64,000 nucleotides of DNA, taken from Octopus vulgaris. Taxonomy: Eukaryota. Under the pieces are notes generated by a model. It did not search any database. It saw nothing but the letters and a program-made list of their open reading frames with translations, and was not told where the DNA came from. How positions within the stretch are numbered: the stretch's first letter is position 1; every line of letters begins with the position of its first letter. The position numbers were made by a program, and so were the translations under genes. The stretch spans positions 43,276,001 to 43,340,000 of the forward strand of contig OX597826.1 of NCBI GenBank assembly GCA_951406725.2, in the 5' to 3' direction. Positions 951 through 34,904 of this stretch are shown here, in pieces.

Positions 951-980
951 ATGTGCATGGCGAGCGCTGCTGCTGCTGCT

Positions 981-1182
981 GTTGTGGTTGTTAAGCAACA
1001 AGATGGGTAAGGGTGATTAGGTGATGGTCTAGGGCTTAGGGGCGGGAGACCCCAGACCTTGGAAAAAAAACTTTGGTCGTCTTGTTGTAGTCGAGGGCTC
1101 TTCGTTGACGCCCGACACCACTGGGAGGTGACCCTCGAAGTCGCTGGATATGGAGATCTCCAGGTTCAAATTCTCGGACGGC
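981..1182 (-). mobile_element. Short non-tRNA retroposon with candidate 5' HDV-like ribozyme (copy 1)
   Basis: Reverse complement aligns with 34318-34500. Short AAC-type tail at 981-992. Flanked on both sides by (GCT)n, consistent with a TSD inside a CAG/CTG repeat. Confidence 0.85.
1091..1180 (-). ncRNA. Candidate HDV-like self-cleaving ribozyme
   Basis: Hand fold: P1 GTCCGAG/GTCGGGC (6 of 7 pair), J1/2 hairpin CTGGA/TCCAG, P2 TCGAGGGTC/GA(G)CCCTCGA, P3 ACC/GGT, L3 TCCCAGT, J4/2 CGAA, essentially no P4. Confidence 0.55.
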
Positions 1183-1291
1183 TGCTGCTGCTGCTGCTGC
1201 TACTACTACTTTGTGACATCGCTGATTATATACTGAACTCTGATTTTATGTTAGGACTAATTGTGGTTATAGGGCTAAGTGTGATGATTAT

Positions 1292-1920
1292 AGGCTCAGG
1301 TGTGGCTGAGTGGCAAGAAGCTTGTTTCCCAACTACGTGGTTCCGAGTTCAGTTCCACTACGCGACACCGTGGGCAAGTGTCTTCTACTATAGCTCCGAA
1401 CCGACTAAATCCTTGTCAGTGCATGTGGGGGAGACGGATACAGAAAGAAGCCTGTCTTGTGTGTGTGTGTGTGTGTGTGTGTATCTACACCGCTTGACTG
1501 CCAGTATTAGTCTCTTCTAAGACGGCGAGCTGACAGAAATGTTAGCACGCTGGGTGAAATGCTTAGCAGTATTTCATCTGCCGCTACGTTCTGAGTTCAA
1601 ATTCCGCCGAGGTCGACTTTGCCTTTCATCCTTTCGGGGTCGATTAAATAAGTAGTAGTTACGCACTGGGGTTGATATAATCGACTTAATATGTTTGTCT
1701 GTCCTTGTTTGTCCTCTCTGTGTTTAGCCCCTTGTGGGTAGTAAAGAAATAAGTATTGGACTCTTCTCAGCAAAAAGAGATCCGATAGAGATTCGATATA
1801 CTAAGCATAGACAAAAGAAAGTAAATACTTCGGGTCGATTTGTTCAACCAATCCCTTCAACGCGGTGCTCCAGTGTGGTCGCAGTCTAATGACTGAAACA
1901 AGTAAAGATAAACTATAAAA
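1292..1920 (+). mobile_element. tRNA-derived SINE family B (CORE-like), interrupted by a family A SINE
   Basis: A-box TGGCTGAGTGG, B-box GAGTTCAGTTCC, CORE-like CACCGTGGGCAAGTG, internal (TG)n, 3' end ...AATGACTGAAACAAGTAAA. Matches copies at 20911, 28119 and 46820. Confidence 0.9.
1520..1752 (+). mobile_element. tRNA-derived SINE family A (Meta/MESC-like central domain)
   Basis: GGCGAGCTG(A/G)CAGAA head, GAGTTCAAATTCC B-box, GCCTTTCATCCTTTCGGGGTCGAT domain, imperfect TSD AGTATT..CTCTTCT. Confidence 0.92.
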
Positions 1921-33785: not shown

Positions 33786-34317
33786 CATACACGCACATTC
33801 ACATACTCGTGCGCGTGCGCATGGACAAACATACACACACACACACATATATATAGTCAATTCAAATAAACAAGCAATTCAAATAAAAAACGCAAACTAC
33901 GAACGTGAGGGCGTGTACAGGAAATATATTAGCTTAATGCTCGGTGAAAGGAGAGAGTTTGACCTTTTGTGTATTGCGCTTCGTCAGAAAGGAGAAAGGG
34001 AAAAGTCGAAAGATGGAGAAGAAGTCGCTAACGGCACACGTGTAGTTTACAACCATCAAATAATTACACACCCATTAAAACCTCATAGTAGAAAGCGTAC
34101 TGACAGAGGTCGTTAGAATATCGGAGAGAATGCTGCTCGAAATTTGTTCAAACTCTATGTGTTCTGAGTTCAAATCGGAATAGATTGACATAAAAAATAA
34201 AATGTATCAATTCAAAAAGGCAAATAGACGAAACTTTGCAATAATTGTTTCGGTTGTATGTGTTCTGAGTTCAAAGCCTGCCTTGACCTACATGAGTAGA
34301 AGACACCATCTGCTGCC

Positions 34318-34545
34318 GCCGTTCAAGAATTTGGACCTGGAGATCTCCATTTCCAGCGACTTTGAGGGCCACCTCCCAGTGGTGTCGGGCGTCAACGAAG
34401 AGCCCTCGACTACAACAAGACGACTACAACAAGTTTTTTTTTCCAAGGTCTGGGGTCTCCCGCCCTTAAGCCCTAGACCATCACCTAATCTTGTTGCTTA
34501 ACAACAACAATAACAACAAGAACAACAACAAGAACAACAACAACG

Positions 34546-34581
<36 letters not shown>

Positions 34582-34582: not shown

Positions 34583-34904
34583 CCATCTGCTGCCTAGTTT
34601 AACAATATCAAGTGGTACCCTGTGTGATTTCACTGGAGCATCTTCTGTTACAAACATCGAAGTTTCGGATTTAAGGATACCTATCTCTGATCTTACCACC
34701 CCTCTCGGATACCCTAGAAAAGGCTATCCCTCCCGACTAAAAGATTAAGAGTAAGCAAAAGCGAAATTTTGGTTAATTAATTAGTTGGACCTTCACCAAT
34801 TCTGTGCTGCCTTCCTATATATTTCATTTCCAGCTCATCTCAGATTGTGAAATGATCCATAGTGACGTTCTTCTCCATTCTGCACCAACTCACCTCATCG
34901 TCGA

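What the first reader, a model, noticed from the sequence alone, without database searches (positions are those of the whole stretch)
981..1182. Candidate HDV-like ribozyme heading a short non-tRNA retroposon (best-preserved fold, minus strand)
Seen: the minus strand reads C-GTCCGAG-aatttgaac-CTGGAgatctccataTCCAG-cgact-TCGAGGGTC-ACC-TCCCAGT-GGT-GTCGGGC-GT-CAA-CGAA-GAGCCCTCGA. This gives the HDV order P1, J1/2 hairpin, P2, P3, 7-nt L3 starting UCC, P3', P1', a G for P1.1, a CGAA J4/2 (C75 equivalent) and P2', with no real P4. A T-run, a 9-bp hairpin GGTCTGGGG/CCCTAGACC and an AAC tail follow. The G-U wobbles work only on this strand. Knowledge, recalled rather than aligned: the core GG(T/C)CACCTC...GTGGTG...GTC resembles the trypanosomatid L1Tc/ingi 77-nt signature (GGCCACCTCAACGTGGTGCCAGGGTC), an HDV-like ribozyme and internal promoter also carried by the short non-autonomous NARTc/RIME/SIDER elements. 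Inference: this may be an animal analogue, a SINE that defines its own 5' end by self-cleavage instead of a Pol III tRNA head. Homology to copy 2 ends within about 3 nt of the predicted cleavage site. Caveats: a G-G mismatch at the end of P1, a bulge in P2, and no P4.
Basis: partly seen in the sequence, partly recalled or inferred. Interest (0 to 1): 0.85.

Follow-up and report, generated by a model that had tools for sequence, protein, structure and literature searches.

The report
Jumping gene with split-stem ribozyme head
This is one copy of an abundant, roughly 195-base jumping element cut down from a longer Ingi-type retrotransposon, and its first 92 bases are predicted to fold into an HDV-like self-cutting RNA, with an unusual four-way junction inside its first stem, that likely trims the element's own front end.

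Summary
The element has at least 1,629 genomic copies; 58 of 60 sampled start at window G1182. It is a bipartite non-autonomous derivative (SIDE) of an RNase H-bearing LINE with which it shares its last 29 nt and (AAC)n tail. A sister family has a full-length 2A-PHD-APE-RT-RNase H element (Ingi architecture) with the same core and four compensatory base-pair changes. Family-wide, P1 is a perfect 7 bp made of bases 1-3 plus 40-43, split by two hairpins into a four-way junction; the sister family has a 1-nt bulge there. Inverted (twin-priming-like) heads end at G1; a derivative lacking the catalytic C drags upstream flank along. Self-cleavage is untested, and an internal promoter could also set the end. 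Ribozyme-headed SIDEs are known (NARTc/RIME, Drosophila R2 SIDEs), so the class is not new; the split P1 in a P4-less core seems to be. New variant of a known kind; interest 0.5.

The parts
981..1182 (-). Whole element (family A, ~195 nt with tail): bipartite non-autonomous derivative of an RNase H-bearing LINE; element position n = window 1183-n
1180..1182 (-). P1 5' strand, distal part (GCC, element 1-3); G1182 is the family 5' end and predicted cleavage product end
   Evidence: pairs with 1112-1110 in 97 of 116 copies; TSDs and inverted heads end here
1164..1179 (-).
   Evidence: all 6 pairs in 85 of 116 copies; fold z -3.0 for 1-43 of L109
1144..1163 (-). Inserted hairpin H2 (7 bp, element 20-39)
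   Evidence: all 7 pairs in 91 of 116
1140..1143 (-). P1 5' strand, proximal part (element 40-43)
   Evidence: pairs with 1116-1113 in 90 of 116; pair 41:69 is G-C in family A and A-U in family B
1130..1139 (-). J1/2 (1 nt) and P2 5' strand (8 bp plus one top pair)
   Evidence: three compensatory changes between families, one distal pair broken in family B
1117..1129 (-). P3 (3 bp) and 7-nt L3 with U..G reverse-wobble positions and the C of P1.1
   Evidence: identical in families A and B
1109..1116 (-). Continuous P1 3' strand (7 nt) and the G of the 1-bp P1.1
1101..1108 (-). 4-nt linker in place of P4, then J4/2 CGAA; predicted catalytic C = plus-strand G1104
   Evidence: family B has a 3-bp P4 hairpin inserted here and the same CGAA; family B short derivative has A at this C
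1091..1100 (-). P2 3' strand with conserved bulged A (1099)
1063..1070 (-). T-run (8-9 T in the family); would terminate Pol III; near the usual start of inverted heads
1026..1058 (-). 10-bp stem-loop, role unknown
   Evidence: z -1.8
990..1018 (-). 3' terminal 29 nt shared with the partner LINE; likely reverse-transcriptase recognition end
   Evidence: 86-97% identity in LINE 3' fragments
981..992 (-). (AAC)n tail
966..980 (-). (CAG)n target, 3' side; matches the 5' side at 1201-1183 (duplication length ambiguous in the repeat)
1183..1201 (-). (CAG)n target, 5' side
34318..34580 (+). Second copy, starting at G+1, with exact 12-bp target-site duplication at 34306-34317 and 34583-34594 and a small deletion near its 3' end

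Best explanation
The element is a short non-autonomous retroposon made of the 5' end and the last 29 bases of a likely Ingi-clade LINE, and its first 92 bases are predicted to fold into a P4-less HDV-like ribozyme that likely cuts the RNA just before G1182. Shown: family size, exact 5' boundary, target-site duplications, shared 3' end and tail with an RNase H-bearing LINE, conservation of the core in a sister family. Inferred: a copy is transcribed inside a longer host or self-promoted Pol II transcript; the ribozyme folds with P1 built from bases 1-3 and 40-43 stacked on one continuous 3' strand, the two inserted hairpins forming a perfect four-way junction; the J4/2 C cleaves 5' of G1, leaving a 5'-OH end that the compact fold likely protects; the LINE protein, in trans, binds the 3' end, the (AAC)n tail anneals at nicked CA-rich microsatellites, and reverse transcription runs to G1, so nearly every copy is full length.
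For: 5' end: 56 of 60 sampled central copies match at G1 and 2 more start there with an internal deletion; 29 of 30 in the set chosen by the 3' end alone. TSD ends directly before G1 in 12 of 32 non-microsatellite flanks by script, the commonest offset; window copy 2 likewise. Family B, found by protein search and not by RNA motif, keeps P3, L3, P1.1 and CGAA and shows four double changes (41:69, 50:87, 51:86, 53:83); its P1 has a 1-nt bulge at the same point; its short derivative has an unbroken P1 with a fifth change at 1:73. 93% of cells paired vs 32-47% for slid partners. Partner: LINE 3' fragments with RNase H share the last 29 nt; L105 and L149 join the head to the ORF end. 7 of 27 LINE-fragment matches carry the head inverted, ending at position 1 in 4, 3 in 2, 27 in 1; 2 such cases in family B. 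Of 7 family-B short copies, which have A in place of the catalytic C where that region is present, 4 share upstream flank in two pairs, 2 are truncated, 1 is unclear.
Against: No cleavage assay and no RNA-end data. Covariation rests on three lineages, five events; within family A copies only decay, and H1/H2 have almost no compensatory support (6:17 is U-G 79, C-G 29, U-A 5, C-A 3 of 116). J1/2 is 1 nt (2 if the end pair frays); in another HDV-like ribozyme a 1-nt spacer gave little activity (PMC4908430), and P1 mismatches are reported as uncommon and harmful (PMC3774820). Pair 46:91 is broken in family B. In L1Tc the promoter start and cleavage site coincide (PMC3185411), so an exact end does not prove cleavage. 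No full-length family A LINE was found. Only 39 of 116 copies keep an intact core; this window copy may misfold. TSD offsets by script were noisy (17 of 32 off zero, 3 with none).
Confidence: 0.75

Rival explanations
1. The head is an inherited ribozyme fold that no longer cuts in family A; an internal Pol II promoter of the Pr77 type starts transcription at G1 and so sets the exact 5' end.
For: L1Tc's 77-nt head is both promoter and ribozyme with the same +1 (PMC3185411, passages); some well-folded SIDER heads were inactive (PMC4035085, passages); the 36-nt insertion and 1-nt J1/2 could hinder folding.
Against: Core and catalytic C are kept between families A and B; the B derivative without that C extends upstream in 4 of 7 loci; the extra base between TSD and G1 in the five -1 cases is T (4) or A (1), never the G a cap would tend to leave (read by eye; cap-G rule recalled).
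Confidence: 0.15
2. One reading: P1 is element 4-10, H2 lies in J1/2, and cleavage is before G4 (window 1179).
For: In this single copy it is marginally the preferred fold (-12.6 vs -12.0 kcal/mol; pair probabilities about 0.9-1.0 when P2 is blocked).
Against: Fully paired in 1 of 116 copies; copies begin at G1, not G4; family B has no such sequence.
Confidence: 0.03
3. P1 is only the 4-bp helix 40-43/67-70 and the first 39 nt are a separate leader, with cleavage (if any) near position 40.
For: A 4-nt P1 has been described in a wasp R2 ribozyme (PMC3774820, passage).
Against: No pile-up of copies starting at 40; bases 1-3 complete a perfect 7-bp P1 that is nearly or fully contiguous in family B and covaries at 1:73.
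Confidence: 0.03
4. An ordinary Pol III SINE whose resemblance to HDV ribozymes is chance.
For: Short, abundant, simple-repeat tail; no Rfam ribozyme model matches.
Against: No tRNA, internal T8-9 run, head found on LINE-derived insertions and a full-length sister LINE, compensatory changes.
Confidence: 0.02

Closest known systems
L1Tc/NARTc and ingi/RIME/SIDER Pr77 ribozyme (trypanosomatids)
   Same: HDV-like fold at the extreme 5' end, 3-bp P3, 1-bp P1.1, cleavage at element +1, short non-autonomous derivatives, parent LINE with 2A, APE, RT, RNase H (PMC3185411, PMC4035085, PMC3708506 passages).
   Different: Animal host; G rather than C at +1; no P4; P1 interrupted by two hairpins; (AAC)n rather than poly(A) tail; promoter activity untested. 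No direct alignment to L1Tc was possible.
Drosophila R2 SIDEs and R2/R1 hybrid SIDEs
   Same: Animal non-autonomous elements of ribozyme plus LINE 3' end, not Pol III transcribed (PMC3414825 passages).
   Different: Those are rDNA-site-specific, low copy, about 500 nt; this one is dispersed, thousands of copies, 195 nt, APE-type parent.
Bipartite non-autonomous Ingi/Vingi/RTE derivatives of animals (Repbase; Kojima)
   Same: Internal deletion joining LINE 5' and 3' ends; Ingi listed among clades with 5' ribozymes (PMC5786205 passages).
   Different: Whether this family is already named in Repbase/Dfam could not be checked; parent has RNase H, so Ingi rather than Vingi type.
Minimal (P4-less) HDV-like ribozymes: theta ribozymes, drz-Mtgn-1, silkmoth R2 and abalone examples
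   Same: P4 replaced by a few nucleotides (PMC10879173, PMC3774820 passages).
   Different: Those are described with contiguous P1; theta ribozymes are phage tRNA-linked.
drz-Agam-2-1 with a peripheral J1/2 domain
   Same: Extra helical domain at the distal end of P1/P2 (PMC4908430, first quarter read).
   Different: There the domain sits between P1 and P2; here it sits inside the P1 5' strand.

Membership tests
HDV-like ribozyme | Nested double-pseudoknot order P1-P2-P3-L3-P3'-P1'-P1.1-(P4)-J4/2-P2' | tested here: met
   P4 absent in family A, present in family B
HDV-like ribozyme | Catalytic C first in J4/2, U and G of L3, 1-2 bp P1.1 | tested here: met
   C79 in 104 of 116 copies (losses are CpG decay), U57, G62, C58-G74 kept in family B
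HDV-like ribozyme | Contiguous 6-7 bp P1 starting at the cleavage site | tested here: inconclusive
   7 bp and starting at the element's first base, but its 5' strand is split by 36 nt; not contiguous as in standard descriptors
HDV-like ribozyme | Compensatory base changes in the helices | tested here: met
   five events across three lineages; too few lineages for an R-scape-type test
HDV-like ribozyme | Mg2+-dependent self-cleavage leaving 5'-OH, lost on C-to-U | not testable with these tools
   only contigs available
Rfam HDV-type models | Score above gathering threshold | tested here: not met
SIDE / bipartite non-autonomous LINE | 5' end and 3' end both from a LINE, no ORF | tested here: met
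   3' end shared with RNase H LINE fragments; head joined to those fragments in L105, L149 and inverted in 7 loci; full-length parent of family A not found
SIDE / bipartite non-autonomous LINE | TPRT marks: target-site duplications, simple-repeat tail | tested here: met
Ingi clade LINE (parent) | Single ORF with N-terminal 2A, APE, RT, RNase H | tested here: met
   sister family B: 2A motif, PHD, APE, RT, RNase H (APE and RNase H below Pfam cut-off in the broken copy); family A: RNase H above cut-off, its RT and 2A not seen
Ingi clade LINE (parent) | RT phylogeny with named Ingi/L1Tc elements | not testable with these tools
   no named reference among homologues
Vingi clade (parent) | Lacks RNase H | tested here: not met
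   definition from PMC13708176 passage
Pol III SINE | tRNA/5S/7SL head with internal Pol III promoter, no internal T-run | tested here: not met
   T8-9 at element 113-121
Pr77-type dual promoter/ribozyme | Internal promoter activity | not testable with these tools
   needs reporter or CAGE data

The most novel reading that the evidence does not exclude
An active natural HDV-like ribozyme whose substrate helix P1 is split by a perfect four-way junction while P4 is gone, heading the smallest kind of ribozyme-defined animal retroposon at thousands of copies, with genomic fossils (inverted heads stopping at G1, flank capture after loss of the catalytic C) recording the cut in vivo. Contiguous-P1 searches would miss this whole class, and sense copies in introns would cut host pre-mRNAs.
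Probability: 0.55. Interest if true: 0.65.

Novelty: new variant of a known kind. Interest (0 to 1): 0.5.

Why it matters
If it cleaves, it extends the HDV fold's tolerated architecture to an insertion inside P1, a site generally regarded as intolerant, and gives a natural three-step series (no bulge, 1-nt bulge, two-hairpin junction) in one genome for testing. It explains how a retroposon with no Pol III head reaches about 95% full-length copies, which bears on 5'-module design for RNA-templated gene insertion (PMC11331408 passages). It also implies that descriptor searches undercount ribozymes in animal repeats, and that hundreds of intact copies (39 of 116 sampled) could cut host transcripts.

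Tried and rejected
Rfam scans: no relevant hit. Pattern for a third ribozyme family with another L3: 3 hits, two mutated family A copies and one without element context. Other RNase H loci L133-L139 and metagenome loci L218-L297 (27-45% protein identity): no head found by descriptor or pattern (one uninspected 11-mer hit in L261); first metagenome scan empty. A recurrent pattern hit in L184-L196 is antisense in an unrelated young LINE and was dropped. Search for a full-length family A parent: 17 pattern hits were 14 short elements, L105, one inverted head and one chance hit. Sequencing runs: no RNA holder listed on record; contigs only, so nothing on expression or RNA ends. Cluster look-up gave no informative names. 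A stricter TSD count and a 2A count over homologues were not obtained because the script machine was lost. Earlier scan findings: none. Ruminski 2011, Kojima 2011 and Webb and Luptak 2011 were not held; their figures or supplements may already show Ingi ribozymes with a bulged or split P1.

Full report
Observation. A second copy lies at 34318 (+), with an exact 12-bp target-site duplication (TSD) ending just before its first G. Rfam gave no hit at gathering level in the window and only an unrelated weak one near the locus; ARAGORN found no tRNA. The genome is 2.8 Gb and unnamed; its repeats look like those of a cephalopod (recalled impression, not tested).

Family. A core 16-mer occurs 1,629 times against 1 for the reversed control, so 1,629 is a floor. 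From 131 loci I took 134 distinct matches, of which 116 were full length and aligned; they differ from their majority by 3.7% on average, 4.5% in the 24 core-selected ones. Contigs of runs labelled as three organisms hold hundreds to thousands of matching pieces, a fourth only 5. Of 60 central copies (30 chosen by the last 73 nt, 30 by the core), 56 match the 5' motif at G1; L088 and L107 also start there but have internal deletions, and L084 and L123 are truncated. In 32 non-microsatellite flanks the script put the TSD end directly before G1 in 12, one base earlier in 5, 1-4 bases later in 10 (often ambiguous or extended through a mismatch), 5 earlier in 2, and found none in 3; 24 of 56 flanks are microsatellites.

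Structure. In the family, bases 4-19 and 20-39 form two hairpins (fully paired in 85 and 91 of 116), and bases 1-3 plus 40-43 complement the seven-base P1 3' strand exactly (97 and 90 of 116). The four helices meet with no unpaired base. P2 (8 bp, a bulged A, one top pair), P3, L3, a 1-bp P1.1, a 4-nt linker instead of P4 and CGAA follow. 39 of 116 copies keep all core pairs and key bases.

Parent. A search for RNase H found a 5'-truncated LINE that ends in the element's last 29 nt and AAC tail. Of 27 matches to that LINE (25 places), 7 carry the element's head inverted at their 5' junction, running from about the T-run back to position 1 (4 cases), 3 (2) or 27 (1); L149, like L105, joins the head forward to the ORF end. 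I read the inversions as twin priming (mechanism recalled; one search gave listings only): a second cDNA ran to the RNA's 5' end and stopped at G1. No full-length family A parent turned up. An unnamed homologue (P0003) led to a sister family B with a full-length, broken 4.7-kb copy (L197) whose TSD also ends just before G+1. It has a 2A motif, PHD fingers, APE, RT and RNase H, the architecture of L1Tc/Ingi elements (PMC3708506 passages; Vingi lacks RNase H, PMC13708176 passage). No named reference was available for a tree.

Covariation. Family B was found by protein, not RNA motif, yet has identical P3, L3, P1.1 and J4/2, a 3-bp P4, and a single bulged base exactly where family A has the two hairpins. 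With six B rows re-registered by hand, pairs 41:69, 50:87, 51:86 and 53:83 change on both sides; 46:91 is broken in B; a short derivative of B has an unbroken P1 with 1:73 reversed. On the unedited 30-row alignment 93% of cells pair against 32-47% for slid partners. These are five events in three lineages, and P3/L3 invariance among 22 of the A rows is by selection. The hairpins rest on thermodynamics (z -3.0) and geometry, hardly on covariation. The B short derivative has A at the catalytic C; of its 7 loci, 4 share upstream flank in two pairs, 2 are truncated within the head, 1 is unclear, as expected if an uncut head carries its flank along. The sample is small.

Mechanism. Most likely the head cuts the element out of longer transcripts at G1, the LINE protein binds the 3' end, and the AAC tail primes at CA-rich targets. 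Cleavage, 5'-OH ends and transcription source are inferred. The main rival is an internal promoter starting at G1, as L1Tc's start and cut coincide (PMC3185411 passages); both could hold. Against activity: a 1-nt J1/2 was poor in drz-Agam-2-1 (PMC4908430, first quarter read) and P1 defects are described as uncommon (PMC3774820 passages). No RNA-end data were available.

Known versus new. Ribozyme-headed non-autonomous elements are described in trypanosomatids (PMC4035085, part 1 and passages) and Drosophila (PMC3414825 passages); bipartite Ingi/Vingi/RTE derivatives and Ingi ribozymes are cited in PMC5786205 (passages); P4-less cores are known (PMC10879173, PMC3774820 passages). I found no report of this family or of a P1 split by a junction in searches (listings; PMC11331408 and a 2026 preprint checked by passages), but three key papers and Repbase were out of reach.

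Noticed in passing
L197:1808-6480 (G000:C10, about 3419807-3424480): Full-length but broken Ingi-type LINE (family B) with ribozyme head, 2A motif, PHD fingers, APE, RT, RNase H, AAC tail and TSD.
   Followed up: yes
L205-L210, L213-L217: Rare short derivative of family B (head plus last ~65 nt) with unbroken P1, A in place of the catalytic C, and captured upstream flank or truncated 5' ends.
   Followed up: partly
L142, L143, L148, L151, L154, L156, L166, L199, L200: Inverted ribozyme heads at LINE 5' junctions; unlike the usual L1 picture (recalled), the inverted piece is the far 5' end, and priming clusters near the T-run. L140 and L147 keep only 8-9 inverted bases.
   Followed up: partly
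L062, L005, L043, L093: Head-to-tail arrays of the element (at least 8, 3, 2 copies; partial units in L093); in L043 the tail joins G1 directly, as a template jump would give.
   Followed up: no
L061-L131 flanks: Strong preference for (CAG)n/(CAA)n/(CAT)n targets (24 of 56 full copies); TSDs often begin with bases matching the AAC tail.
   Followed up: partly
L088, L107, L303: Single copies that start at G1 but have internal deletions between short repeats in the hairpin region.
   Followed up: no
L041:1050: The element's last ~40 nt sit behind a piece of another SINE family; chimera or truncated insertion.
   Followed up: no
window 1291-1456, 1515-1757, 2434-2850: Two other abundant short repeat families, one with a tRNA B-box-like motif, with many copies across the window.
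   Followed up: no
L176-L196: Young LINE families with open frames of about 950-1040 aa, only 24-29% like the Ingi-type protein; one has an AAC/CAG-rich 5' region and 98% identical copies.
   Followed up: partly
L133-L138: A third RNase H-bearing LINE family (30-35% to the Ingi-type proteins); no ribozyme head seen in the stretches fetched.
   Followed up: partly
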